A stretch of DNA of 35,116 bases from Thermoanaerobaculales bacterium (lineage in GTDB: Bacteria; Acidobacteriota; Thermoanaerobaculia; Thermoanaerobaculales; Sulfomarinibacteraceae), in the NCBI GenBank assembly GCA_029938595.1, contig JAOZUP010000002.1, forward strand, positions 1 to 35,116, read 5' to 3'. Under the pieces are notes generated by a model, which searched no databases, was not told where the DNA came from, and saw only the letters and a list, made by a program, of their open reading frames with translations. Positions 1 to 34,777 of this stretch are shown here, piece by piece. The position numbers were made by a program, and so were the translations under genes. How positions within the stretch are numbered: the first letter of the stretch is position 1; every line of letters starts with the position of its first letter.

Positions 1-1052
1 CCTGCCACGTGGGTCCCACGGAAGCCGGTGAAAGGTTTGGAAACTCGCCCGTCATGGGACAAGACCCTGGCGCCATAGAACGTACCGACCGACAGGGCGT
101 GTGGCTCCGGATCGGTCATGCCGATCACGGCCACCTTTGCCTGCTCGGAGCGGATCGCGTCAACCGCCATTTTCAGCGCAACGCTGAAGCCCGAGCACGC
201 GGCAAGCGGTGCAATCGCCGGCCCGGTGATGTGGGCGAGCATCGAGATCTGGGCCGCCGGGATATTGGGGATGTTCCACAACAGGTTGGGATGGACGGCA
301 CTCCATGGTTCGGTGGGGCAGCCGTACTCGGCATTGAGCTTTCGACGAGTCGTCATCTTGCGGCGGATGATGTGGCCCTTGCCGTTCTCGATGTCGCCGG
401 TGATGCCCTCCCCCTCAATCTCGCTGTGCTTGTCGAGGTACTGCCGCAGACCGTCTGAGCGAGCAACCCAGAAGGCGTCCCAACCCTCACTGATCTCATC
501 AAAACTCTCACTCCATGGATCGACACTCGCAGGGTCCTGCGGTGCGCCCAGCTGCTCGCGCAGCTGATCCTTCTGCTCATCCTTGGCGAGGCGGTATTCC
601 CTGAGCTCGCTGTGATGCTCGTCCTGGCACCAAAAACGGTTCCACCTTCTCTGGGCGCGGTGATAGCGCAGTGCGAGCTCGTAATGAAGCGGAAAATCGC
701 CCAAACCGGTGCCTACGTACACATGGGCCTGGCGACCCAGGTCTTTCAGCAACGGCTCGAGGCCGGGGTTCTGGCTGAGTGCCTGGATAAAGGCGCCGAT
801 CGCGTACTTGACCGTGTTGCCCATCTTGGACTGCAGCTGGGAAAACTTCCGCGGTTCGAATCGTGCGTCGACCCACGATTTGTAGACCGCAAAATCGAAC
901 TCCGGCCTTCCGACGAGGAAGTTACTTGGCCCAAACCCGTCAAAAGGCTCGAGCCAGCTTGTTGCGCTTTTGAGGTTGCTCTCGAAGGTCGCGATATCCG
1001 GCGATTTTGGGGCAACGATACCCCACCCAAAGATACCGATGCGTTTATTCAT
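1..1052 (-). CDS. beta-ketoacyl synthase (KS), N-terminal ~350 aa; the 3' end runs off the left edge
   Basis: Absent from the ORF track because it has no stop in the window. Reverse-strand ATG at 1052..1050, with GAGGGA 9 nt upstream. Hand translation reads MNKRIGIFGWGIVAPKSPDIATFESNL ... HITGPAIAPLAACSGFSVALKMAVDAIRSEQAKVAVIGMTDPEP ... KPFTGFRGTHVA. This gives a KS-type N-terminus and the acyl-cysteine motif AACSGF at about residue 286. About 110 extra residues (about aa 125-250) sit before the Cys compared with FabF/FabB-type KS. Confidence 0.8.
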   Translation of the reverse strand, partial: MNKRIGIFGWGIVAPKSPDIATFESNLKSATSWLEPFDGFGPSNFLVGRPEFDFAVYKSWVDARFEPRKFSQLQSKMGNTVKYAIGAFIQALSQNPGLEPLLKDLGRQAHVYVGTGLGDFPLHYELALRYHRAQRRWNRFWCQDEHHSELREYRLAKDEQKDQLREQLGAPQDPASVDPWSESFDEISEGWDAFWVARSDGLRQYLDKHSEIEGEGITGDIENGKGHIIRRKMTTRRKLNAEYGCPTEPWSAVHPNLLWNIPNIPAAQISMLAHITGPAIAPLAACSGFSVALKMAVDAIRSEQAKVAVIGMTDPEPHALSVGTFYGARVLSHDGRVSKPFTGFRGTHVA

Positions 1053-1081: not shown

Positions 1082-2512
1082 TCAGGTTTCGAGCTCCAGC
1101 AGCCTGGTGATCACGTCGCGGGCGGTGTAGGACGTCCGACCTTCGGGAATGAAGCGCGCGATCTCCAAAAGGTCGTCGCCGCTGGTGAGCAACGGTTTCT
1201 CGACCGAGCCGTCCTTTAGAACCTGTGGGAGACCGACATTTGATACCAGAGAGTTGCAGATGCACTTTCGTCCGATCGTGGCCGATTCTTCGCCGCCCTT
1301 GGCGATATAGATCTCTACCGGTTCGGAGGCGCACCGGTATCCCAGGCTCCCGTCGTCCTTCATATACGTCTCCCGCAAATACCCGAGATTACAGACCCGG
1401 GTTCGCGAAAGGTAGACGTCCTGCTCGGAAAGCGTGCCTTCCAGTTGCGCCACCTTGAACGGGAACCCGGTCGGCGAGGCAAGAGGATCCGTGAACACCC
1501 GAGCTGTTCCCGCCACCGCCTGTTGCAACAGGGCGCTCCGATACTCCTGTGACATCCCCGACTCATCGCAGAGCGCAAACGCGGTCCCCACCTGAATCCC
1601 GGCGCCGCCCACCGCTAGGACCTCGCGCAGCTTGTCGGCCGACGCACACCCACCGGCCACCCAGAACGGGAGCCCCAACTCGCGGATCTTCCCGAGATCT
1701 ACCGCGTCCCGCTCGCCGTAAATCGGTTCGCCAAGCTCGTTCATCTGCAGCTTGCCGCGAGGCGGCGCGTTGTGACCGCCCGCGGTCGGTCCCTCGATGA
1801 CAAAGCCGTCGACCTTGCCGTTGGACCTCCTCAACATCGTCATCGCCAGAACATTGGAGGCGATGATGGGCAGAAACCTGGGTCGTTCGAGCGGCGGGTG
1901 ATCGCCCTCCATGATGTCCCGTGGATCAAACCGTGTGAACCTCTTGTCGCCTGATTGTGCGCCCACGACGTTCAGAGGGTAGGACGCGGGCTCGTGACGG
2001 CAGAAGCTATCGAGGACGCCGGGGATCATGATTGGGATTCCCGCACCCATGACCACGTATCCGACGCCGGCCAACATGGCGCCGTAGATGGACGGAAGGT
2101 GGGGCATTTGGATCTTTTCCAAATAGTTGATGCCGACCGCCCCGTCGTGTCCTTCGCGAGCCAGAAAGACCTCCACAAAATTGCCCAGGACGCACAGCTC
2201 GTGGAGTTTTTTTGATCCCGCCTGTTTGTGGAAAGGAATGGCTGCGAAGGGTTTGTCGTCGGCCTTGCCGCCCGGAATGTAGTACTTCTCCACGGCCCGT
2301 CTGGCCATGTCGCGGAATGGAAAATTCTCCAACGCCCGGCGAATATGTCCACCAATGTCGCCTTCCTGGAGGCGTCTGACCATGAGCACCTCGAGAGCGA
2401 CGCCCGACACGACCCCGAGCTGTCCCAGCTTCGAGACCGTTCGCGCCAGGTGCCAGTTCGAGATCGCCACGCCCATCCCGCCCTGAATGATCTTTGGGTA
2501 TGCGCCCGCCAT
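1082..2512 (-). CDS. nitronate monooxygenase (NMO) family flavoprotein, FabK/PfaD-like putative enoyl reductase, 476 aa
   Basis: The N-terminus is YPKIIQGGMGVAISNWHLARTVSKLGQLGVVSG, followed by GAGIPIM and VIEGPTAGGHN blocks typical of FMN-binding NMO/2-nitropropane dioxygenase TIM barrels. The stop lies 29 nt upstream of the KS start on the same strand. Confidence 0.85.
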   Translation of the reverse strand: MAGAYPKIIQGGMGVAISNWHLARTVSKLGQLGVVSGVALEVLMVRRLQEGDIGGHIRRALENFPFRDMARRAVEKYYIPGGKADDKPFAAIPFHKQAGSKKLHELCVLGNFVEVFLAREGHDGAVGINYLEKIQMPHLPSIYGAMLAGVGYVVMGAGIPIMIPGVLDSFCRHEPASYPLNVVGAQSGDKRFTRFDPRDIMEGDHPPLERPRFLPIIASNVLAMTMLRRSNGKVDGFVIEGPTAGGHNAPPRGKLQMNELGEPIYGERDAVDLGKIRELGLPFWVAGGCASADKLREVLAVGGAGIQVGTAFALCDESGMSQEYRSALLQQAVAGTARVFTDPLASPTGFPFKVAQLEGTLSEQDVYLSRTRVCNLGYLRETYMKDDGSLGYRCASEPVEIYIAKGGEESATIGRKCICNSLVSNVGLPQVLKDGSVEKPLLTSGDDLLEIARFIPEGRTSYTARDVITRLLELET

Positions 2513-2597: not shown

Positions 2598-3080
2598 TCA
2601 GCTGGTGATCAGCTCCATGCCGCAGGTGCAGTCGCCCGGCTCGGTGGAGATGAAGTTGCAGGTGCACGAGCCGCCGCAGTTACAGAAGTACAGCCCGCTG
2701 CCCTCGAGGCTGACCCGCTTGAGGTCGGCGCCGCACGCGCATTTGGTGTTGTCCTCGGCGTCGATCTCGCATGTGCAGTCGCCCGAGCAGGTGCACAGCA
2801 GCGCGTCGTGACCTTCCACCTTGACCACGTGGGTCGCCACCAGCTCGGTGCCACACGTGCAGGTGCCGGCCTCGGTGCTGACGGTGCCGCAGGCGCAATC
2901 GGGCCCGCAGTTGCAGGCATAGACCACATCGTGCCGGACCGCGACGTCGGCGTCCTCCACCGCGACCTCTGCCACCGCCGTCTCGGTCTCGACCTCGACC
3001 ACCGGCTCGGATTTGCCACAACCGATCACCGCAACCATCACGCAGCACGCGATCAACATCATGAGACCTGACTTTTTCAT
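2598..3080 (-). CDS. cysteine-rich (CxC repeat) lipoprotein, putative metal-binding, 160 aa
   Basis: The track ORF 2598..3188 is trimmed to the ATG at 3080, which is preceded by AAAGGAGGGG. The N-terminus MKKSGLMMLIACCVMVAVIGC carries a lipobox-like VIGC. The mature part contains three ~45-aa repeats, each CxCxxxCxC-(9-10)-CxCGxEL (YACNCGPDCACGTVSTEAGTCTCGTELV / LCTCSGDCTCEIDAEDNTKCACGADLK / YFCNCGGSCTCNFISTEPGDCTCGMELI). That gives 18 Cys plus the lipobox Cys. Confidence 0.75.
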   Translation of the reverse strand: MKKSGLMMLIACCVMVAVIGCGKSEPVVEVETETAVAEVAVEDADVAVRHDVVYACNCGPDCACGTVSTEAGTCTCGTELVATHVVKVEGHDALLCTCSGDCTCEIDAEDNTKCACGADLKRVSLEGSGLYFCNCGGSCTCNFISTEPGDCTCGMELITS

Positions 3081-3217
3081 TGCCCCTCCTTTTAGCTCCG
3101 CCGTTTCATCCGAGAACCACCCGGCACACAGCGGTAGCGGAACGCTGCCCATCCTACAACGATTCTCGGTCGTCGGAGCAAAGGCCACATCTCACGACTA
3201 CTCCCGGGCCTTGCTAC

Positions 3218-7695: not shown

Positions 7696-10600
7696 TCACG
7701 GGAGCAACGGCGATACTCGTCCTCCGGGGCGACGGATTTGCGCGCCTTGCCGGCTTCTGACTTCGATATTTTGGACCGCCTTGCGGGCGGTGCCGCCGTC
7801 CGGGGTCACAGTGGCGACGACCTGGTAGCGCCCCAACGGCACGGTCCTCCCCTCCCACGAGTAGGTCACCATGCTCTGTCCTTTCGCTGAAACGGTGCGC
7901 GTGATCTCACCCAGATCGTCCTCGGGGCGTCCGGTGAGATCGAGCACGGCAATCTCGAAGCGGACGGATTGCTGTGCGGAGGTCGTGTTGGCGTAGGTCA
8001 CCGAAAACTCGACCGGTATTCCCGGTAGAACAGAATCCGGCACCACGAACTCCACGATGTGGCCTACGAGCACCTGGACCGTGCTGTCCGCCCGCGCCAC
8101 CACCGCCGCGTCGCGTTCCAGCTCGAGGTGGACCGCGAAACTCCCCTCCCCTGCCGGCGCTTGAAAGACCGGTGCGAGATCCGCTGTCGATCCGGCCTCC
8201 ACCGTGAATGGTCCATCCGTGGAGCGCCCGAGCTCCTGACCGAACACGTCGATCACGCGAAGGGTTGTGTTGACGACCACAGCATCGTCGGACACATTGA
8301 TGACATTGACGTTCGTCGGCACCGATTCTCCCGGAGCGGCGCTGAGGGCTTGCACGCTGAAATCGGTCACGGCGACGGTCTCAGATGCTGCATACACTAT
8401 GCGGACATCGAGCCGCCGGTACAACGTGGTTTGACCGGTCGACGCCTCGTAGACGACCGGAAACAGGTGGACGTGCAACACGAGGTGGTCCTCCACCTTG
8501 CGCACCTCCCAGGTGAAATGCTCTGCCGGCACAGTACCTGCCTCCGGTGGCGTGGCCGACCACACGTCGTCGGTTCCGCCAACAGCCAGGAACACCCCCG
8601 GCTCGTAGTGCGGAATCGCCATCACACCGAGTTGCACCTGATCCTCGGTCTGCACCTCGACATCCGTTATCTGGGCATCGGCTGGCAGCTGCAGCTCGAT
8701 CTCCGTTGCCGGCAGCACCGGCCCATCGAAATGCCGTTGCATGAATCCTTCGACCTCGACCAGGGCGAAGCCGGGGGCCGTTTCTTCGTCAACGGTATAG
8801 GTGCTGGCATCGACGGAGGTCGTTCTCTCAAACGTGTTTTGATCAAGGGCTTTGGGTGAGCCAAAAACGGGGTCAACGATCATTTGCGCATTGTCCTGCG
8901 TCAACAACTTCGACGACGAGCCTCTGGGGATCTTCATCCACGGTACGCCGTACAGGGTGATCTCCTGCACGGCAGTCTTGTCCCGGCAGTACCAGCCCGC
9001 GAGGGCGGAGTAGCTGCTCTTGGCCCGACGAAGCGCCGAGCCGACGGAACGGAGCGTGCCGGAACCCGGCATCGCCCGTCGGATGAACCTGTTGAAAACC
9101 TCCTCCGAGTACCACTCCGACCCGCCCGATGAGTGCCAGGAGATTCCGGCGTTGGCAACGGCCCCCGAAGCGCCCTCGGCAACCAACCGGTCGATCAAAG
9201 AGTTGGGACCGAGAGTCATGCCGACCCTGCAGTCCTCAAAGCCGCAGAACGGTCGGCTCGTGAGTCCGGTCGTGATCGTGGCGGCCAGGGTCGACCCGCC
9301 GATACAATCCATCTTCGACTTTCTGCTGCCAGTAGGCGCGCATATAGCATTCGGGCCGCCGTGGTCGGCGTGCAAAAAGATCGCAAACTGCTCCCGCAGC
9401 GCGTCGAGTAGATCGTTCTCTCGCCAGTCGTCGTTGTCGACCATGTCTGATGACGCGCTGTAGCCCCAATCCCGAACATGGTCGAGCACGCTCGAGTCGC
9501 TTGACCCGAGGTCGAGCTCCGGCCCGTCCCAGCTCGCCAGTACCGCACGCGGCGAGGCACCTGGGTTCGGGCCGTCCAACCCATGTTCAAACAGGAATCG
9601 CAAACTCTCCGCAGTGTCGCCGACGATTCGTCCGACGATGACCTCCAGCTCACCCTTGTCCCACTCCGAGTGATCCGTATCGCCGAAGTGGTTGTCAGTC
9701 AGAATGAAGTCGTTGTTGACCACCCGACCGATGACAGGGTCGCTGGAGGAATGATCCGACTCCGTGTCTTCGCAGGGACATTCTCGACGGTACATGGGAA
9801 TCACGTCGTCGTCGCCCAGGATGACCACGTAATCCACGTCGTCGGCGTCGTCGATCCAATCTTCGAGCAACTGGTCGATCTCGCGTGTCGCGGGATTGGC
9901 GGTGGTCTGATTCCAGGTGTTCCAGGTGAGGTTGTCCCAGTCGTGCGCCTCCGTCGAATAATCGTCCACAAAGTAGATCGCCGCCGGCATTCCCCCTGAT
10001 GGACCTGTCGGGGGGCCCTGCAAGGCCCAGGTCACGGTCGCGAGCAGATAGGTCGAGTCCCAGAGGTCATAGGTGGTTTCGTACAGGTGATGTCGGCTGG
10101 TCAGGACGATCACCGGAACCTGGCGAACGAGCCGGATGGGCGGACCATCGACATCCGCAACTACCTCTCCATCCGATCCCCCGTAGCGGACATCCGCTGA
10201 CGGAATGATGTCGCCGGCAGGATCGCTGCTGATCACGGCAAAACGGAACACGAACTGCTTCCGGAGAGGCGCCGAACCCGCGGCCAGCGGTATCGTCGCG
10301 CTGTAGCGGCCGGTGCCCGTGACGTAGAAGGTCACCGGATCGAGGGCGCAGCCGGTACAGTCGCGGACTCCCGAGTCGATGGGAAAGCCGAGCGCATCGC
10401 CCGGGATCTCCACCGTCACATAGGGTTCCGCCGGTCCACTGCTGTCGACCGTGACCTCCGCAACCACATCGACGTAGTTGACATCCGCGGGTCCATCGTT
10501 GTCCGGGATCAACTTGTAGACCGCGGGCCCAAGCAGCGAGCCCTGGTCCAAAAATACCCGGACATCTGTGTTCAAGGGATCGGTGGAAACTTCCAGTACG

Positions 10601-13464
10601 TAGGGATCGTCAGGTCCTGAAATGCGGTTGAACCCGTCCACCCTGAGGTAGTAATCGCCGGTTACCTCAGCTGTATGGATGATTCTGCGAAGAGCCGTGT
10701 CGGAGTCGTTTCCGGCCTCCGCAATCATGCTCCTATCCGGTCCGTACAGGGTCAGGCGGTACGGGCGAGTCACCTCGAGATCCGCAATCAGTACATCATC
10801 GGCGTCAACCGTGACGACGAAGAAGTCAACGTCGCGTCGATTGCAGATGCGTGAGCTATGGCGAAGGGTCGTATCGATGGCCGAGGCATGGTCGAAGTCG
10901 TCGTTGGGTTCCTTCGGATCGAAACACCTGGAAAACTCAGAGGTGTTGCCGCTGGAATCGGTCGCGGTGGCATGGATATACCGACGGCTCTTGTACCCTT
11001 CCCACCGCCACGCGCCGGTCGCCAACGCTGTGACCGTGCCCTCGTAGGTCCGTCCATCATCCATCACGTCCGAAAACACCTCGACCGTGCATCGCGAGCA
11101 CGCGACCCCCTCAGCCCATTCCGAGGTGTACCCGCTGACGATCGGCTCGATGATTCTCTCGTTGCCCACGTTGACACCGGATCCGAGGCTGATTCCGCGT
11201 CCGTCGTTGTCGAAGATGCTGTTCTCGGTGATGGTGTTGTAGTCGGTCGTGGCCCCGTACACCTGTACACCGACCCCGCCATTGAGCGAGATCGTGTTGT
11301 CCGGGCCGATCGTGTTGTGCTGGGCGCCCATCTCGAGACGAACCCCGTCACCGGCGTTGCCCAACGGTAGGTGGCTCGGCGTGCTGGTTCCGATACGGTT
11401 GCCGGCGACCACGTTCAGGTCCGCGTCCCAAAGACTCACACCGGCACTGCCGTTGTCGGCGATCAGGTTGCCGCGTCCGCTTTCCGCGCCTCCTATTTCG
11501 TTGAAGCTCCCATGTTGAATGGAGACCCCCTCGAACCGATTGCCGAGCCGCGCACCACCATCGATAGAGGCACCTATCCAGTTGCCGTAGACCTTGTTGC
11601 GCTGGGCATCCCCCCCGGCGATCTTGACGCCGCGGTCACCGTTTCCGGATATCACATTACCCTCGCCGACGCGGGATCCGCCGATCCGGTTGTACCTGGC
11701 GCCGTCGTTCAGCAGGACACCGCCACCGCTGTTTGCAAGCGCGGACGTGCCGGTCACATCGGTGCCGATTCGGTTGCCATACACCAGTGCGTATGCCGTC
11801 CCGGAAAGATGGAGCCCGACGTTGGTGTTTCCGGATATGACGTTTCCTTCCCCGGTGCCCGCGCCGCCTATGTGGTGGCCGAGGCCTCCTGATAACACGA
11901 TCCCCTTGACGTTGCCGGCGGCGGCGGCACCCGTGTGGTCGGTGCCCACGAAACAGCCGTGCACGTCAAGATGGCTACTCCGGGAGGCCTGCAGGCCGGC
12001 CTGGCTCCAGTTCGAGATCACGATGCCGACAACCGAGGATTCCCCGACGTCATCGAGGTCAACACCAACCGCCCCGCTGCCGGCGCTCGAGCCGTCGAGC
12101 ACGATCTCGGGCCCGTCCGGGTTGGTGTCGCCTTGATTCGCGGTTTGAGTCGTGCCTTCGAGATGCAGAGATTTTGTCAGCACGGGCAGCACGGCCGGGC
12201 GGATGGTCCATACCGTGCCGTCAAAGCCCGCGTCGGAACTCGGGATATCGAACTGAACCGGAGCGTTTGCGCCCGCGTCGACCTCGTTGAATGCCTCTCG
12301 GAGCGAGCAGTGTGCGTCGTTGCAGGTGCCGTCGTCGAGGTCATCGGTGGTGTTGACGACGACCGGCGCCGGCGGAGCGTACGGGATCACATCGATGGTG
12401 AGAAAGTACGGCTGACTCGGTTCGTAATCGCCTCCGGGGCTGAACACACGCGCCCTGAACTCGCCCTCGAAGTTGCTCACCTTGAACTCGATCCGCTCCT
12501 CTGCGGTGTCCGCCGCATGAGAGGACGCCACGAAATCACCATGTGGATCGTAGAGCTCGAGATCATAGTTTTTGGGCAGCTGCTCGAGTTTGATCCCGAT
12601 GGTGTCGTGCAACGCGGCAGAGAACGAGAAGTAGTCGTCGTCAGCGGCTGAGCAGATGTACGACTGGATGGTGGTGGGGTACGGCGGATCCAGAGACCAT
12701 GCCGCGCTATAGCTGTCGTTGGGCTCGAATGAATCCGGGCACGATGTTGGGGTTCCGGTTGGGGTCGGCATCAGCGTCGGGGTCCTGGTTGGAGTGGGGG
12801 TACGGGTTGCCGTGGGCGTCGCCGTGGGGGTTGTCGGTGTTGCCGTAGGTGTCACCGAGGGTGCCTCGTAGATCACCTTGAGCTCGGGCGGCCCCTTCTC
12901 ACGACTCGCAAACTTGCGAACGTACGGGTTGCCGCTGCTCGGACCCGCGATCGCGAGACCATAGTTGTCATAACCCGCTAGCCAGTCCATCACCAAGGCT
13001 GTCGCGTTCCACTCCACCCAACCGATCTGGCTGCCGACGCTTGACTGGCCTCGCCCATCGAAGAAAGGAACCGAATTGTGGGTGACGGTGTTCTCCTGCC
13101 AGGGGTCCCAGCACAGATTGACCGACAGCATCACCGGGCTCGCGCCGGTGGCCTGGATCATGTCGAGACTCAGGGTCGCGCTTTGGATGGTCGCGTTGGC
13201 CGGGATACTCGACAGATCGAAGCGAATGAGCGTCTGCGCCACCGCAGAGGGTTGATCGTTCATCGCGACGATCAACTCGGTGGCGGATCCGTAGTTGGTG
13301 TCCGGATTCAACGAGTCCACGTAGGCGTCGGCGACAGCGTACAACGTGATTTCGGTCGCCTCCAGTGAGTGGACCGCCGGACCGATAGACATGACGAGCA
13401 GGCACAACCCCAACACGACCGGGTGTGCCCATGAACAACGGGCGGACAATCCGTTCAGCTCCAT
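7696..13464 (-). CDS. 1922-aa secreted mosaic protein: DNRLRE-like domain, Pro/Thr linker, PPC domain, parallel beta-helix repeats, second PPC domain, C25 (gingipain-like) cysteine peptidase domain, C-terminal CARDB/Ig-like domains
   Basis: GGAGG lies 7 nt upstream of the ATG, and there is a signal-like N-terminus. Domain evidence, by residue:
- aa ~36-200: ADAYVDSLNPDTNYGS...TLIRFDLSSIP...ATLSL, DNRLRE-type.
- aa 203-240: TPTATPTTPTATPTATRTPTPTRTPT linker.
- aa 241-360 and 848-962: EPND...DDDYFSF and EPNDDFDHA...DVDFFVV, pre-peptidase C-terminal type.
- aa ~365-790: repeated GNVISGN / GNRIG / NTI units, PbH1/NosD-like.
- aa ~1115-1515: VVILGDDDVIPM, LTDNHFGDTD...VGRI, FLHADHGGPN (His), FCGFEDCRVG (Cys), which is the C25 hallmark order.
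- aa ~1697-1900: two CARDB-like modules. Confidence 0.9.
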   Translation of the reverse strand: MELNGLSARCSWAHPVVLGLCLLVMSIGPAVHSLEATEITLYAVADAYVDSLNPDTNYGSATELIVAMNDQPSAVAQTLIRFDLSSIPANATIQSATLSLDMIQATGASPVMLSVNLCWDPWQENTVTHNSVPFFDGRGQSSVGSQIGWVEWNATALVMDWLAGYDNYGLAIAGPSSGNPYVRKFASREKGPPELKVIYEAPSVTPTATPTTPTATPTATRTPTPTRTPTLMPTPTGTPTSCPDSFEPNDSYSAAWSLDPPYPTTIQSYICSAADDDYFSFSAALHDTIGIKLEQLPKNYDLELYDPHGDFVASSHAADTAEERIEFKVSNFEGEFRARVFSPGGDYEPSQPYFLTIDVIPYAPPAPVVVNTTDDLDDGTCNDAHCSLREAFNEVDAGANAPVQFDIPSSDAGFDGTVWTIRPAVLPVLTKSLHLEGTTQTANQGDTNPDGPEIVLDGSSAGSGAVGVDLDDVGESSVVGIVISNWSQAGLQASRSSHLDVHGCFVGTDHTGAAAAGNVKGIVLSGGLGHHIGGAGTGEGNVISGNTNVGLHLSGTAYALVYGNRIGTDVTGTSALANSGGGVLLNDGARYNRIGGSRVGEGNVISGNGDRGVKIAGGDAQRNKVYGNWIGASIDGGARLGNRFEGVSIQHGSFNEIGGAESGRGNLIADNGSAGVSLWDADLNVVAGNRIGTSTPSHLPLGNAGDGVRLEMGAQHNTIGPDNTISLNGGVGVQVYGATTDYNTITENSIFDNDGRGISLGSGVNVGNERIIEPIVSGYTSEWAEGVACSRCTVEVFSDVMDDGRTYEGTVTALATGAWRWEGYKSRRYIHATATDSSGNTSEFSRCFDPKEPNDDFDHASAIDTTLRHSSRICNRRDVDFFVVTVDADDVLIADLEVTRPYRLTLYGPDRSMIAEAGNDSDTALRRIIHTAEVTGDYYLRVDGFNRISGPDDPYVLEVSTDPLNTDVRVFLDQGSLLGPAVYKLIPDNDGPADVNYVDVVAEVTVDSSGPAEPYVTVEIPGDALGFPIDSGVRDCTGCALDPVTFYVTGTGRYSATIPLAAGSAPLRKQFVFRFAVISSDPAGDIIPSADVRYGGSDGEVVADVDGPPIRLVRQVPVIVLTSRHHLYETTYDLWDSTYLLATVTWALQGPPTGPSGGMPAAIYFVDDYSTEAHDWDNLTWNTWNQTTANPATREIDQLLEDWIDDADDVDYVVILGDDDVIPMYRRECPCEDTESDHSSSDPVIGRVVNNDFILTDNHFGDTDHSEWDKGELEVIVGRIVGDTAESLRFLFEHGLDGPNPGASPRAVLASWDGPELDLGSSDSSVLDHVRDWGYSASSDMVDNDDWRENDLLDALREQFAIFLHADHGGPNAICAPTGSRKSKMDCIGGSTLAATITTGLTSRPFCGFEDCRVGMTLGPNSLIDRLVAEGASGAVANAGISWHSSGGSEWYSEEVFNRFIRRAMPGSGTLRSVGSALRRAKSSYSALAGWYCRDKTAVQEITLYGVPWMKIPRGSSSKLLTQDNAQMIVDPVFGSPKALDQNTFERTTSVDASTYTVDEETAPGFALVEVEGFMQRHFDGPVLPATEIELQLPADAQITDVEVQTEDQVQLGVMAIPHYEPGVFLAVGGTDDVWSATPPEAGTVPAEHFTWEVRKVEDHLVLHVHLFPVVYEASTGQTTLYRRLDVRIVYAASETVAVTDFSVQALSAAPGESVPTNVNVINVSDDAVVVNTTLRVIDVFGQELGRSTDGPFTVEAGSTADLAPVFQAPAGEGSFAVHLELERDAAVVARADSTVQVLVGHIVEFVVPDSVLPGIPVEFSVTYANTTSAQQSVRFEIAVLDLTGRPEDDLGEITRTVSAKGQSMVTYSWEGRTVPLGRYQVVATVTPDGGTARKAVQNIEVRSRQGAQIRRPGGRVSPLLP

Positions 13465-33082: not shown

Positions 33083-34777
33083 TTCCCATCCAGGAACGCG
33101 TAACTAATTGAAAACAAACAAGAAAAAGCGCATTCTGGGGTTCACTTTTTCGAGCCCCTGTTGTAGAATCTGTGGTGCTAACACACTGACCTGTAACAGG
33201 TTAGAGAATGCGAGGGCCACAGAATGCGCCAAAAACATCGAATTCAGCGGGCACTGACCGAGGCCTGGCTCGACCTGCCCTATGCCAAAGAGCTTGAGGT
33301 GATCGACGATCTCCTCACCTCACAGCCTACGATTGGTGAGCTCGCAGCACAAGACCTGATTGGCGGAGATCCCGAGACGGGTCGTCCCGGGATGACCGGC
33401 GAAGAGGCTATTCGCGCCCTCGTGCTGAAGCAGGCCAACCAGTGGTCATACTCTGAGCTGTGGTTTCAGCTTCACGACTCGCAGACGAGCAGAGCGTTCA
33501 TGGGCTATGGAATCAGTGACCGAGTCCCCTCGCGATCGGCGTTGGCAGAGAACATCAAAAAGCTCAGAGCCGAGACGCTGGAGTCGATTTCGCGGGTGGT
33601 CCTCGACATGGCGGAAAAGGCTGGGGTGGAGAAGGGGCGCAAGGTCCGGATCGATACGACGGCCGTGGAGAGCAACATCCATCATCCATTCGAGTCCGAC
33701 CAGCTGTGGGACGTCGTTCGAGTGCTGACTCGATCGATGAAGCAGGCAAAGGAGTTGACCGCCGACGAGTTGACGATCACGTTCGCCGATCGCACCCGCC
33801 GAGCCAAGCGGCGTTATCGGGGCGCTTGGAATGCGAAGACCAAGGCCAAGCGAAGGGAGCAGTATCGGGATCTGCTCAAGGTCGCCAGAGAGGTGATGGG
33901 GGCTGCTCGGCGTGTCGCGATACTGCTTGAAGACTTCAGTCCCAAGACCGCCGGCGCCTCGGCCAAGGCCGCCCGCATTCGGGGTGAGATCCTCCGGGTC
34001 TTGGCTCTCGCCGACACCTTGTGCGATACAACACAGCGTAGGGTGATCAATGATGAGCTCGTTGCTTCCACGGAGAAGGTGATCTCCATTTTTGAAGACC
34101 ACACCGACGTCATCAGGAAGGACCGCAGAGAAACCATCTACGGCCACAAGATCTGCCTGACCGGCGGAGCCTCGTCTCTGATCCTCGACTGCAGGGTCCT
34201 CGAGGGAAACCCCGCCGACTCCTCTCTTGCCGTGGATGCCGTCAGGCGGCAAGAAGAGGTCTACGGTCGGCTTCCTCGACAGGTCGCATTAGACGGCGGT
34301 TTTGCTTCGAAGATCAACCTCGCTGAAATCAAGGGTCTCGGCGTACAGGATGTGGCGTTCTCCAAAAGGCGTGGCCTCGAAATCTCAGACATGACGAAGA
34401 GCACCTGGGTATATCGCCGCCTCCGTGACTTCCGCGCCGGCATCGAAGGCTGCATCTCGTTCCTCAAACGCTGCTTTGGATTGGACCGGTGTTCCTGGCG
34501 TTCGTTTGCCTCATTCAAAGCCTACGTGCAGGCTTCGGTGCTCAGCTTCAACTTGCTCGTCCTCGCCCGACATCTCCTCACGTAACACGAGCCTCCACCC
34601 CGGAATTTTCCGCCAAGCCTTCGGGGAGGGTCTGCTTTGCCGTGCCGCAACGAGGTCTCGCCCGGCCAATCGGCCGGTCTGGAGGAAGATCTCGCTCGCC
34701 ATCTGGGTACCTCACCTCACATCTACGCCAGGGACCTGGATTTGAAGGGCTACGTCTCGGGGGTTTCCGGATGGGAA
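33083..34777 (+). mobile_element. insertion sequence, ~1.7 kb, IS4/IS5-superfamily DDE type, with terminal inverted repeats and an 8-bp target-site duplication
   Basis: IRL is TTCCCATCCAGGAAC (33083..33097). The reverse complement of IRR is TTCCCATCCGGAAAC (34763..34777), matching 13 of 15. The direct repeat CGGGCTAG occurs at 33075..33082 and 34778..34785. The element carries a single transposase ORF and has a lower-GC left end. Confidence 0.85.
33224..34585 (+). CDS. DDE transposase (DDE_Tnp_1 type with a DUF772-like N-terminal domain; from memory similar proteins are labelled ISNCY/IS5-like), 453 aa
   Basis: The N-terminal block is GRPGMTGEEAIRALVLKQANQWSYSELWFQLHDSQTSRAF. The candidate first catalytic Asp is in VRIDTTAVESNIHHP and the second in VALDGGFAS. 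The tail is basic. Confidence 0.85.
   Translation: MRQKHRIQRALTEAWLDLPYAKELEVIDDLLTSQPTIGELAAQDLIGGDPETGRPGMTGEEAIRALVLKQANQWSYSELWFQLHDSQTSRAFMGYGISDRVPSRSALAENIKKLRAETLESISRVVLDMAEKAGVEKGRKVRIDTTAVESNIHHPFESDQLWDVVRVLTRSMKQAKELTADELTITFADRTRRAKRRYRGAWNAKTKAKRREQYRDLLKVAREVMGAARRVAILLEDFSPKTAGASAKAARIRGEILRVLALADTLCDTTQRRVINDELVASTEKVISIFEDHTDVIRKDRRETIYGHKICLTGGASSLILDCRVLEGNPADSSLAVDAVRRQEEVYGRLPRQVALDGGFASKINLAEIKGLGVQDVAFSKRRGLEISDMTKSTWVYRRLRDFRAGIEGCISFLKRCFGLDRCSWRSFASFKAYVQASVLSFNLLVLARHLLT

What the first reader, a model, noticed from the sequence alone, without database searches (positions are those of the whole stretch)
2598..3080. Lipid-anchored, triplicated CxC module resembling the mycobacterial Cu(I) metallothionein MymT
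Seen in the sequence:
- A strong SD and a lipoprotein-type signal (..VAVIGC).
- An acidic linker (EPVVEVETETAVAEVAVEDAD).
- Three tandem ~45-aa repeats, each with the fixed spacing CxCxxxCxC-(9-10)-CxCGx(E/D)L, giving 18 repeat cysteines.

From memory, the 53-aa MymT ends in ...[20 protein letters not shown], which has the same CxC ... CxCGxEL flavour. Known bacterial metallothioneins (SmtA/BmtA, MymT) are small cytosolic single-module proteins. An exported, membrane-tethered, three-module version would be a periplasmic metal (Cu/Zn/Cd) buffer or chaperone of a kind I do not recognise as described.

The gene sits at the head of the NMO-KS transcription unit and is divergent from a metallo-hydrolase gene.
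Basis: partly seen in the sequence, partly recalled or inferred. Interest (0 to 1): 0.7.

Follow-up and report, generated by a model that had tools for sequence, protein, structure and literature searches.

The report
Exported cysteine-rich metal-binding lipoprotein family
This is a real, conserved gene for a membrane-tethered, exported protein made of three six-cysteine modules. The modules are elaborated versions of a small copper-binding domain, so the protein is probably a periplasmic trap or relay for copper-like metals in anaerobic sediment bacteria, a kind of protein not yet described or tested.

Summary
Window 2598-3080 (minus strand) encodes a 160-aa protein with a strong ribosome-binding site, a lipoprotein signal peptide, a disordered acidic tether, and three modules with identical spacing CxCx3CxC-x9-CxCG (18 Cys).

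It belongs to an unannotated family:
- About 280 clusters at 50% identity, with no Pfam, NCBIfam or PDB match.
- All members come from uncultured anaerobes (Acidobacteriota, Desulfobacterota, Nitrospirota).
- Nearly all complete members carry a signal peptide.
- The gene is under purifying selection.

The MymT resemblance is weak and not evidence of homology. The informative relative is the HMBD domain (PF19335):
- A sub-clade with the same three-module, exported architecture has a bona fide four-Cys HMBD in place of module 1.
- The best PDB match is the Legionella CopA N-terminal domain, which binds Cu(I)/Ag(I) through three sulfurs. Those three positions align, by motif, with C135, C153 and M155.
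- In five Desulfobacterota loci the gene sits in an operon with the copper chaperones SCO1 and NosL.

Most likely it is a periplasmic soft-metal (probably Cu(I)) thiolate binder. The metal, the stoichiometry and the thiol redox state are untested. The window's own neighbours (NMO-KS, metallo-hydrolase) are not conserved and carry no functional information.

The parts
2598..3080 (-). Complete ORF (160 aa plus stop) for the cysteine-rich lipoprotein
   Evidence: ORF list and sequence. There are 199 close homologues. dN/dS is 0.21-0.33 and GC3 is 0.89.
3085..3090 (-). Shine-Dalgarno AGGAGG, 4 nt before the ATG
   Evidence: Read directly from the sequence. AAGGAGG/AAGGGGG is conserved in homologous loci.
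3021..3080 (-). Sec/SPII signal peptide, residues 1-20 (MKKSGLMMLIACCVMVAVIG)
   Evidence: Satisfies the lipobox rule. Among family members with a recognisable module, 127 of 258 have a lipobox and 104 have another hydrophobic N-terminus.
3018..3020 (-). Cys21, the predicted lipidated N-terminal residue of the mature protein
   Evidence: Lipobox A-V-I-G-C. G-C is conserved in close homologues.
2937..3017 (-). Acidic, low-complexity tether (residues 22-48; rich in E, V, A and T)
   Evidence: pLDDT is below 50 for residues 1-38. The region is variable in length and sequence in the family. Some members have a His/Met-rich linker here instead.
2829..2936 (-). Module 1 (residues 49-84): RHD-VVY-C56xC58-x3-C62xC64-x9-C74xC76-G-x-E-L...H84
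   Evidence: Conserved columns. Positionally equivalent to a four-Cys Pfam HMBD in a sub-clade. pLDDT is about 90.
2712..2828 (-). Module 2 (residues 85-123): beta hairpin VVKVEGHDALL, then C96xC98-x3-C102xC104-x9-C114xC116-G
   Evidence: Conserved in every clade of the family, including the HMBD-type clade. The commonest replacements at C98 are His and Met.
2601..2711 (-). Module 3 (residues 124-160): G-LYF-C133xC135-GGS-C139xC141-x9-C151xC153-G-M155-E-L
   Evidence: The most conserved module. Its second knuckle aligns with PGHCPLCGMAL of the LpCopA metal-binding domain. It shares 52% identity with module 1.
3094..3138 (-). Conserved GC-rich hairpin in the 5' leader, between a -10-like TAGGAT (3151-3156) and the SD
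   Evidence: Alignments and RNAalifold. The covariance model finds it only upstream of this gene in 7 closely related loci. No Rfam match. Covariation is not significant and the folding z-score is -1.3.

Best explanation
The gene encodes a Sec-exported protein. After signal peptidase II cleavage it hangs from a membrane by lipidated Cys21 and a flexible acidic tether of about 27 residues. It displays a compact all-beta domain of three tandem modules in the periplasm.

Each module is an elaborated HMBD-type knuckle domain of the kind found at the N-terminus of the Cu(I) pump CopA. The four core sulfur positions are kept. A five-residue insert adds two more cysteines, giving six thiolates per module and 18 in the protein, plus Met155.

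In the anoxic, sulfidic habitats of its hosts these thiols are expected to stay reduced. They would bind thiophilic metal ions picked up in the periplasm, most probably Cu(I), as small polynuclear thiolate clusters. By analogy with CxCx3CxC sites, these could be Cu2S4 to Cu4S6 per module. The protein would then act as a high-affinity periplasmic buffer or scavenger. In lineages where it is co-operonic with SCO1 and NosL, it could act as a store or relay that hands copper to those chaperones.

- **Shown:** gene reality, export signal, module anatomy and conservation, homology to HMBD-bearing proteins, and the SCO1/NosL synteny in one clade.
- **Inferred:** metal binding itself, Cu(I) as the metal, cluster nuclearity, reduced thiols, and the buffer or relay role.
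For: 1. **A real, selected, conserved gene.**
   - 199 close hits, and about 280 clusters at 50% identity in 1.84 billion proteins.
   - Cys columns are at least 93% conserved.
   - dN/dS is 0.21-0.33.
2. **Export.** The lipobox rule is met. 231 of 258 members have a hydrophobic N-terminus, and those lacking one are mostly fragments. There is no twin-arginine motif, so any cofactor must be acquired outside the cytoplasm (sequence).
3. **Link to HMBD.**
   - 8 of 149 representative members hit Pfam HMBD PF19335, best E 7e-9.
   - These members are full-length homologues (E 1e-11 to 1e-22) with a signal peptide and three modules.
   - In them, YxCPxCH...GKCPKCG replaces module 1, and YVCPMGCP...PGKCACGM sometimes replaces module 3.
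4. **Best PDB hit.** The family profile's best hit is 8ovl, the LpCopA N-terminal metal-binding domain (E 0.0026), followed by rubredoxin-like and zinc-ribbon proteins. That domain is a small beta bundle that binds Ag(I)/Cu(I) through M44, C59 and M61 (PMC11970713). By motif these positions equal C135, C153 and M155, all near-invariant.
5. **Motif precedent.** The CxCxxxCxC motif in CopY binds two Cu(I) or one Zn (PMC7558416).
6. **Conserved operon.** SCO1/SenC, cytochrome c, this gene, NosL, a small protein, FtsX/MacB-like permease, ABC ATPase and a membrane protein occur together in divergent Desulfobacterota loci (L007, L031, L049, L055). L051 keeps SCO1 and the cytochrome c. Gene order is shuffled and neighbour identities are 35-61%. 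NosL and Sco are periplasmic Cu(I) chaperones (PMC7558416).
7. **Ligand-like substitutions.** The commonest non-Cys residues at C98 and C135 are His and Met, which are metal ligands rather than disulfide partners. Some members carry His/Met-rich linkers or tails typical of periplasmic Cu(I) binders.
8. **Structure.** AF2 gives a confident (pLDDT about 90) all-beta domain for residues 50-160 and a disordered tether.
Against: - No metal-binding data exist for any member. All carriers are uncultured MAGs.
- The window protein itself does not hit the Pfam HMBD model. Its clade profile scores only 5.7 bits against the LpCopA domain, a score reached by 11 of 5000 shuffles. The HMBD link is therefore transitive.
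- The copper-chaperone synteny covers only about 5 of about 48 non-redundant loci, all in Desulfobacterota.
  - In the window and its own clade the neighbours are unrelated to metals.
  - The HMBD-type clade sits in housekeeping contexts.
- Exported proteins with many paired cysteines are usually disulfide-bonded, and 18 is an even number.
- AF2 folds the domain confidently without metal, which is unlike classical metallothioneins.
- I could not inspect S-S distances in the model, because no coordinates were available.
- Foldseek found no significant structural neighbour.
Confidence: 0.6

Rival explanations
1. Disulfide-knotted structural domain. The 18 cysteines form nine disulfides that rigidify a small exported beta domain. 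Its real function would be something else (adhesion, binding a partner, envelope structure), with no physiological metal binding.
For: - The protein is Sec-exported.
- The Cys count is even and the Cys are strictly conserved.
- AF2 predicts a confident fold without any metal.
- Most loci contain no metal genes.
Against: - Full-length homologues replace module 1 with a four-Cys HMBD, a cytosolic-type metal-binding knuckle that is not disulfide-bonded.
- Single Cys are replaced by His or Met rather than lost in pairs.
- CxC pairs are poor disulfide partners and are classical metal-thiolate motifs (established knowledge; CopY in PMC7558416).
- The hosts are anaerobes of reducing sediments.
- Synteny with SCO1 and NosL in five loci.
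Confidence: 0.13
2. Structural or redox metal sites without a metal-handling role. Each module would be a zinc-ribbon or rubredoxin-like knuckle holding one Zn(II) or Fe ion that only stabilises the fold, or carries electrons as in rubredoxin and desulforedoxin. The protein would then be an adaptor or a periplasmic electron carrier, not a buffer or chaperone.
For: - After LpCopA, the profile hits to PDB are rubrerythrin's rubredoxin-like domain and the zinc ribbons L32 and RPB12 (E 0.1-0.5).
- The fold is confident and compact.
- The family is restricted to anaerobes with rich periplasmic redox chemistry.
- The gene is adjacent to a cytochrome c in the L007-type operon.
Against: - Six conserved Cys per module exceed the four needed for a structural site. 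The two extra Cys come as a conserved insert.
- The Sec/SPII signal means export in the unfolded state, so cytoplasmic cofactor loading is excluded (sequence; established knowledge of Sec versus Tat).
- The nearest solved relative binds Cu(I)/Ag(I) as a sensor or cargo site, not a structural Zn.
- The operon partners are copper chaperones, not redox enzymes.
Confidence: 0.15
3. A true homologue of the mycobacterial metallothionein MymT, triplicated and fitted with a signal peptide.
For: - MymT aligns to module 2 with a similar pattern: V+V..eA.LL(C)xC...CxC...CxCGxEL.
- It scores above most shuffles: 9.4 bits, reached by 7 of 5000 full shuffles.
- Both are CxC-rich.
Against: - 9.4 bits is far below significance in any database search.
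- With the Cys positions held fixed, 41 of 5000 shuffles reach that score, so most of the score comes from the Cys pattern.
- MymT has seven Cys with different spacing and an extra CHC.
- It has no signal peptide and occurs as a single module in Actinobacteria.
- NCBIfam did not name the window protein as anything.
- A much better supported relative, HMBD, exists.
Confidence: 0.04
4. A binder of another thiophilic species: Zn/Cd/Hg/As(III)/Ni, or sulfane sulfur/polysulfide. This would reflect the sulfur-cycling lifestyle of the hosts rather than copper handling.
For: - The hosts are sulfate or sulfur cyclers: Ca. Sulfomarinibacter, Desulfobulbia, Desulfurivibrionaceae, Thermodesulfovibrionales and Ca. 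Sulfobium.
- Cys6 sites also bind Zn2 or Cd2, and CopY's motif binds Zn as well as Cu.
- Most loci lack copper genes.
- Nine members weakly resemble the plant Zn-metallothionein Ec, below threshold.
Against: - The only informative synteny is with copper chaperones.
- The nearest solved relative is a Cu(I)/Ag(I) site.
- No mer, ars, czc or sulfur-transferase genes recur nearby.
Confidence: 0.08

Closest known systems
HMBD, heavy-metal-binding domain (Pfam PF19335), e.g. the N-terminal metal-binding domain of Legionella pneumophila CopA (PDB 8OVL)
   Same: - The motif skeleton is the same: Y-x-C ... P-G-x-C-x(1-2)-C-G-M-x-L.
- The fold is a small all-beta knuckle.
- The ligands are sulfur only. 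Positions M44, C59 and M61 of LpCopA correspond to C135, C153 and M155.
- Full-length family members carry a bona fide HMBD in place of module 1.
   Different: - HMBD is a single cytosolic domain with four Cys/Met/His ligand positions, attached to pumps or efflux adaptors, and binds one ion.
- Here three modules stand alone on an exported lipoprotein.
- A five-residue insert adds two Cys (CxCGxxCxC) and the second knuckle is CxC rather than CxxC.
- Module 2 has no HMBD counterpart.
- The window protein does not reach the Pfam model.
MymT, the mycobacterial Cu(I) metallothionein
   Same: - Small and CxC-rich, ending in CxCGxEL.
- Proposed to hold several Cu(I) ions in a thiolate core (PMC7558416).
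   Different: - Cytosolic, 53 aa, a single module with seven Cys and different spacing, found in Actinobacteria.
- Its similarity to the family profile is not significant.
CopY-type C-terminal CxCxxxCxC metal site (and related fungal Ace1/Mac1 Cu-thiolate motifs)
   Same: The identical CxCx3CxC spacing. It is experimentally a site for two Cu(I) or one Zn(II) (PMC7558416).
   Different: It is a short tail on a cytosolic DNA-binding repressor. It is not an exported repeat domain, and no homology is implied.
Csp1/Csp2 copper storage proteins of methanotrophs
   Same: Exported, Cys-rich proteins that store many Cu(I) ions outside the cytoplasm (PMC11672702; PMC7558416).
   Different: Csp proteins are Tat-exported four-helix-bundle tetramers. 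This protein is Sec/SPII-exported and all-beta, made of small knuckle modules.
NosL and Sco1/SenC periplasmic Cu(I) chaperones (and, from my own knowledge, the Cu-binding lipoprotein CopL of Staphylococcus and Bacillus)
   Same: - Lipid- or membrane-anchored, extracytoplasmic and Cu(I)-binding.
- NosL and Sco genes are operon partners of this family in five loci.
   Different: They bind one Cu per protein with mixed ligands, have unrelated folds, and are not Cys-cluster proteins.

Membership tests
Bacterial lipoprotein (signal peptidase II substrate) | Positively charged n-region, a hydrophobic h-region, and a lipobox [LVI][ASTVI][GAS]-C with the Cys at position 15-35 | tested here: met
   K2 and K3; hydrophobic residues 6-19; A-V-I-G-C21. 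A PROSITE PS51257-type regular expression (recalled from memory) matches. LipoP and SignalP were not available.
Bacterial lipoprotein (signal peptidase II substrate) | Actual lipidation and cleavage | not testable with these tools
   Needs globomycin sensitivity, palmitate labelling or mass spectrometry.
HMBD (Pfam PF19335) | Match to the Pfam model above its gathering score | tested here: not met
   The window protein has no Pfam hit up to E = 1. 8 of 149 representative family members do match, best E 7e-9; P0251 scores 28.8 bits against a cut-off of 23.6.
HMBD (Pfam PF19335) | Motif Y-x-C ... P-G-x-C-x-x-C-G-M-x-L, with S/N ligands at the two knuckles | tested here: inconclusive
   Module 3 reads Y-F-C-N-C ... 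P-G-D-C-T-C-G-M-E-L. The second knuckle is one residue shorter and the first has a five-residue insert. Direct profile score to LpCopA is 5.7 bits, reached by 11 of 5000 shuffles. The mixed-clade profile scores E 0.0026 against 8ovl.
HMBD (Pfam PF19335) | Binds Cu(I)/Ag(I) | not testable with these tools
   Shown for LpCopA only (PMC11970713).
MymT metallothionein | Significant sequence similarity to MymT | tested here: not met
   9.4 bits against the family profile, reached by 7 of 5000 full shuffles and 41 of 5000 Cys-fixed shuffles. No NCBIfam assignment.
MymT metallothionein | Small cytosolic single-module protein without a signal peptide | tested here: not met
   160 aa with a signal peptide and three modules. 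MymT is 53 aa.
Metallothionein in the broad sense | High Cys content in CxC/CxxC motifs and few aromatic residues | tested here: met
   18 Cys in the 112-residue domain (16%), all in CxC pairs, with four aromatic residues.
Metallothionein in the broad sense | Multiple metal ions in thiolate clusters; fold dictated by the metal | not testable with these tools
   No metal data. AF2 predicts a confident metal-free beta fold, which is atypical for metallothioneins.
SmtA/BmtA bacterial metallothionein (Pfam PF02069) | Match to the family model | tested here: not met
   No Pfam hit. SmtA (sequence recalled from memory) scores -4.5 bits against the family profile.
Csp copper storage proteins | Cys-lined four-helix bundle with a Tat signal (Csp1) | tested here: not met
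   The model is all-beta with no helices. The signal peptide has no twin arginine (sequence).

The most novel reading that the evidence does not exclude
This would be the founding member, in this scan, of an undescribed family of Sec-exported, usually lipid-anchored 'periplasmic metallothioneins'. They are built from a new six-cysteine module that evolved from the HMBD copper-binding knuckle. Each module would hold a polynuclear Cu(I)-thiolate cluster. The protein would let anaerobes living in sulfidic sediments capture and hold scarce or toxic copper outside the cytoplasm, and in some lineages pass it to NosL and Sco chaperones.
Probability: 0.4. Interest if true: 0.75.

Novelty: new variant of a known kind. 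Interest (0 to 1): 0.6.

Why it matters
**Gap in known biology.** Known bacterial thiolate-cluster metal stores are either cytosolic (SmtA/BmtA, MymT, Csp3) or Tat-exported helical bundles found in methanotrophs (Csp1). A Sec-exported, lipid-tethered, all-beta thiolate-cluster protein would be a third solution. It would be the first assigned to the periplasm of strict anaerobes.

**Ecological relevance.** In sulfidic sediments copper and zinc are locked up as sulfides, so metal acquisition for enzymes such as N2O reductase is an open problem. A high-affinity periplasmic thiolate store linked to NosL and Sco would make that problem testable.

**Domain evolution.** The family also shows how a one-metal knuckle (HMBD) can be expanded into a six-Cys cluster site. 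That is of interest for metalloprotein evolution and for designing metal-capture proteins for bioremediation.

**If it is not a metal binder.** If the cysteines turn out to be disulfide-bonded, the finding reduces to a conserved hypothetical lipoprotein of modest interest.

Tried and rejected
1. **Pfam, NCBIfam and PDB sequence searches with the window protein.** Nothing was found.
2. **Foldseek of the AF2 model against PDB.** No hit below E = 1, only weak SH3/Tudor-like strands.
3. **MymT homology.** Tested with the verified MymT sequence and rejected as unsupported.
4. **Functional link to the window's neighbours.**
   - The window's NMO and MBL proteins have no close counterparts near the gene in the earlier-fetched loci L001-L063.
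   - The 82%-identical homologue sits between a GGDEF gene and a serine beta-lactamase-family gene.
   - The MBL next to the L003 homologue is not similar to the window's MBL.
   - No metal genes occur elsewhere in the 35-kb window.
5. **Neighbour enrichment over about 48 genome loci.** No dominant family. SCO1 appeared in 3 of 77 upstream genes.
6. **Contexts of the HMBD-type clade from metagenomes.** These were housekeeping (PIN-TRAM, CarD, IspD) or unrelated ABC systems. Look-ups of P0169 and P0176 gave contigs too short to use.
7. **P0209.** This 1554-aa protein with 18 'stretches' is a false positive with a different repeat.
8. **5' leader hairpin as a riboswitch-like element.**
   - No Rfam match.
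   - Found only in 7 close relatives.
   - Covariation not above controls.
   - Folding z-score of -1.3.
   - Not pursued further.
9. **Literature searches.** Searches for exported or periplasmic bacterial metallothioneins and for the motif found no description of this family.
10. **Original MymT paper.** It could not be retrieved.
Full report
**1. The observation**

The feature is on the minus strand. Window 2598-3080 is an ORF of 160 codons, preceded by AGGAGG four bases upstream of the ATG. The product is:

MKKSGLMMLIACCVMVAVIG-C-GKSEPVVEVETETAVAEVAVEDADVAV-RHDVVYACNCGPDCACGTVSTEAGTCTCGTELVATH-VVKVEGHDALLCTCSGDCTCEIDAEDNTKCACGADLKRV-SLEGSGLYFCNCGGSCTCNFISTEPGDCTCGMELITS

- The N-terminus fits a PROSITE-type lipoprotein rule: two lysines, a hydrophobic core, and A-V-I-G-C with the Cys at position 21.
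- The three modules have exactly the same spacing, CxCx3CxC-x9-CxC-G-x-(E/D)-L.
- The modules start at residues 56, 96 and 133, so the period is 40 and 37 residues rather than about 45.
- None of 200,000 shuffles of the mature sequence contained the motif three times, and only 55 contained it once.
- Modules 1 and 3 are 52% identical. Module 2 is more divergent.
- The gene is real. GC3 is 0.89, and dN/dS against six homologues is 0.21-0.33.

**2. A conserved, unannotated, exported family**

The protein has no Pfam, NCBIfam or PDB sequence match.

Family size and composition:
- The word-indexed search found 199 relatives. All were hypothetical and none had Pfam domains.
- An exhaustive profile search of 1.84 billion representatives found 286 clusters at E <= 1e-3.
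- At least one of these, P0209, is a false positive.
- Variants with two and four modules exist.

Conservation and export:
- All 18 Cys columns are at least 93% Cys across 269 aligned members.
- Among 258 sequences with a recognisable module, 127 have a lipobox and 104 have another hydrophobic N-terminus. The 27 without one are mostly truncated metagenomic fragments.
- The family is therefore, as far as can be seen, exported.

Host range:
- A scan of one genome per GTDB species found 54 loci, all in MAGs.
- The lineages are Acidobacteriota (Thermoanaerobaculia, Ca. Sulfomarinibacteraceae, Holophagae), Desulfobacterota (Desulfuromonadales, Desulfobulbia, Desulfurivibrionaceae), Thermodesulfovibrionales, Methylomirabilota and one Verrucomicrobia genome.
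- No cultured organism carries the gene, so no experiment can have touched it.
- The window itself is most likely from a Ca. Sulfomarinibacter-like Thermoanaerobaculia genome. The best locus is 82% identical, and the neighbouring NMO gene's cluster carries that name.

**3. Structure**

AlphaFold2 with a 121-sequence alignment gives a disordered N-terminus and tether (pLDDT below 50 for residues 1-38). Residues 50-160 form a confident all-beta domain with pLDDT of about 87-95.

Foldseek found no significant PDB neighbour.

**4. The MymT lead**

My recalled MymT sequence was verified as the exact MYMT_MYCTU entry.
- Against the family profile it scores 9.4 bits and aligns to module 2.
- 7 of 5000 full shuffles reach that score, as do 41 of 5000 shuffles that keep the Cys positions fixed.
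- The resemblance is therefore real as a pattern but is not evidence of homology.
- MymT also fails the other features: it is 53 aa, cytosolic and single-module.

**5. The informative relative: HMBD**

Scanning 149 representative members against Pfam gave 8 hits to HMBD (PF19335, best E 7e-9). It also gave 9 sub-threshold hits to the plant Ec metallothionein model.

The HMBD-positive proteins (P0169, P0170, P0175, P0205, P0223, P0237, P0242, P0244, P0251 and others):
- are full-length homologues, with E of 1e-11 to 1e-22 in the exhaustive search;
- have the same signal peptide and three-module plan;
- have module 1 reading Y-x-C-P-x-C-H ... G-K-C-P-K-C-G;
- sometimes have module 3 reading Y-V-C-P-M-G-C-P ... 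P-G-K-C-A-C-G-M.

In the alignment, window C56, C64, C74 and C76 take the places of the four HMBD cysteines. A five-residue insert (N-C-G-P-D) contributes C58 and C62.

A profile that includes this clade finds the 83-residue N-terminal domain of Legionella CopA (8ovl) as its best PDB hit, at E 0.0026. Rubredoxin-like and zinc-ribbon proteins follow. The window-clade profile alone finds nothing in PDB. It scores only 5.7 bits against the CopA domain, a score reached by 11 of 5000 shuffles, aligning PG-x-C-x-CGM-x-L. The link is therefore transitive but coherent.

The CopA domain is a small beta bundle that binds Ag(I), and by inference Cu(I), through M44, C59 and M61 (PMC11970713). By motif these correspond to C135, C153 and M155 of module 3, all near-invariant in the family. 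This residue correspondence is my inference.

The CxCx3CxC spacing is also the Cu(I)2 or Zn site of CopY repressors (PMC7558416).

**6. Genomic context**

In the window:
- The gene is followed after 85 nt by an NMO/FabK-like gene, with no predicted terminator between them.
- That gene is followed after 29 nt by a ketosynthase gene.
- The gene is divergent from an MBL-fold plus TPR gene.

None of this is conserved:
- The closest homologue lies between a GGDEF gene and a serine beta-lactamase-family gene.
- The window's NMO and MBL have no close counterparts beside the gene in loci L001-L063.
- Nothing else in the 35-kb window is metal-related.
- Across about 48 non-redundant genome loci, no neighbouring Pfam family dominates.

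The exception is one clade of Desulfobacterota loci:
- L007 (and its near-duplicate L008), L031, L049 and L055 share a cluster. It contains SCO1/SenC, a mono-haem cytochrome c fusion, this gene, NosL, a 109-aa protein, a MacB/FtsX-type permease, an ABC ATPase and a 334-aa membrane protein.
- L051 keeps SCO1 and the cytochrome c.
- The order varies and neighbour identities are only 35-61%, so the linkage is maintained by selection.
- NosL and Sco are periplasmic Cu(I) chaperones (PMC7558416).

Metagenomic loci of the HMBD-type clade gave housekeeping or unrelated contexts.

**7. Other hints**
- Where a conserved Cys is replaced, the commonest substitutes at C98 are His (5) and Met (4), and at C135 Met (4). 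These are ligand-like swaps and occur singly, not as paired losses.
- A minority of members have His/Met-rich linkers or tails, such as CHGHHHRGMWAH, GCGMHHHEQRRM and DKDHEMKSHDMM. These are typical of periplasmic Cu(I) proteins.
- The window protein's linker is acidic instead.

**8. Interpretation**

The best-supported reading is a Sec-exported, lipid-tethered protein whose three HMBD-derived six-thiolate modules bind thiophilic metal acquired in the periplasm. Cu(I) is the most likely metal. The protein would act as a buffer or scavenger and, in the NosL/Sco operons, as a store or relay.

- **Shown:** the gene, its export signal, its module anatomy and conservation, the HMBD relationship through intermediates, and the copper-chaperone synteny in one clade.
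- **Inferred:** metal binding, metal identity, cluster nuclearity, reduced thiols and physiological role.

The rivals are listed with their tests in the rival-explanations section:
- a disulfide-knotted structural domain;
- structural or redox Zn/Fe knuckles;
- a true MymT homologue;
- a binder of another soft metal or of sulfane sulfur.

**9. Novelty**

No search of the held literature found an exported bacterial metallothionein or this family. Absence from that library is not proof.

The domain kind (HMBD-like sulfur knuckle) and the concept (thiolate metal store) are known. The six-Cys module, the tandem stand-alone architecture and the extracytoplasmic, lipid-anchored location are new. I therefore rate it a new variant of a known kind, of moderate to high interest, pending a simple metal-binding experiment.

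Noticed in passing
window 3094-3138 (-), with a TAGGAT -10-like box at 3151-3156 (-): The 5' leader carries a GC-rich hairpin of about 45 nt, conserved in sequence between a -10-like box and the SD. A covariance model finds it only upstream of this gene in 7 closely related Acidobacteriota loci. In the window, the minimum-free-energy fold also pairs UUCC with the GGAG of the SD. There is no Rfam match, covariation is not above controls, and the folding z-score is -1.3.
   Followed up: partly
L007 5734-12121; also L008, L031, L049, L055 and L051: A conserved Desulfobacterota operon: SCO1/SenC, a 536-aa mono-haem cytochrome c fusion, the Cys-rich protein, NosL, a 109-aa protein, a MacB/FtsX-type permease, an ABC ATPase and a 334-aa polytopic membrane protein with no Pfam match. 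It looks like an undescribed periplasmic copper-handling system distinct from nosDFYL.
   Followed up: partly
proteins P0194, P0206 and P0240 (family members): Three-module relatives with no signal peptide and a CxxC-type first module (YTCEECNTLSLTPGPCEICGEE). They may be cytosolic ancestors or variants of the exported family, or they may be truncated gene calls.
   Followed up: no
proteins P0126, P0089, P0099, P0157 and P0208: Some family members replace the acidic tether with His/Met-rich segments (for example CHGHHHRGMWAH), or add a Met/His-rich C-terminal tail. This resembles periplasmic Cu(I)/Ag(I)-binding proteins.
   Followed up: partly
window about 1-1052 (-) and 1082-2512 (-): A ketosynthase gene (active-site ACSG, running off the window start) lies directly downstream of an NMO/FabK-like flavoenzyme gene, with a 29-nt gap. 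This is a small lipid or polyketide-type pair of unknown product, apparently co-oriented with the lipoprotein gene only in this lineage.
   Followed up: partly
window 7696-13464 (-): An ORF of 1922 aa with a signal-like N-terminus, a Thr/Pro-rich linker (TPTATPTTPTATPTATRTPTPTRTPT) and beta-helix-like repeats. It is presumably a giant secreted or surface protein.
   Followed up: no
window 33224-34585 (+): An ORF with a DUF772 transposase domain near the window end, which may mark an insertion sequence.
   Followed up: no
cluster look-up of the window protein: The 90%-identity cluster holding the 160-aa protein also holds 476-aa NMO proteins, and its representative is an NMO. This is presumably a clustering artefact from fused or overlapping gene calls. 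Cluster-level names for this protein should not be trusted.
   Followed up: no
L087, L102, L111, L118, L120 and L124 (metagenome loci): Distant (30-36% identical) relatives of the HMBD-type clade sit in a conserved housekeeping neighbourhood (a 262-aa protein, the gene, PIN-TRAM, CarD, IspD-like genes). This suggests a stable chromosomal position in one lineage rather than a functional operon.
   Followed up: partly
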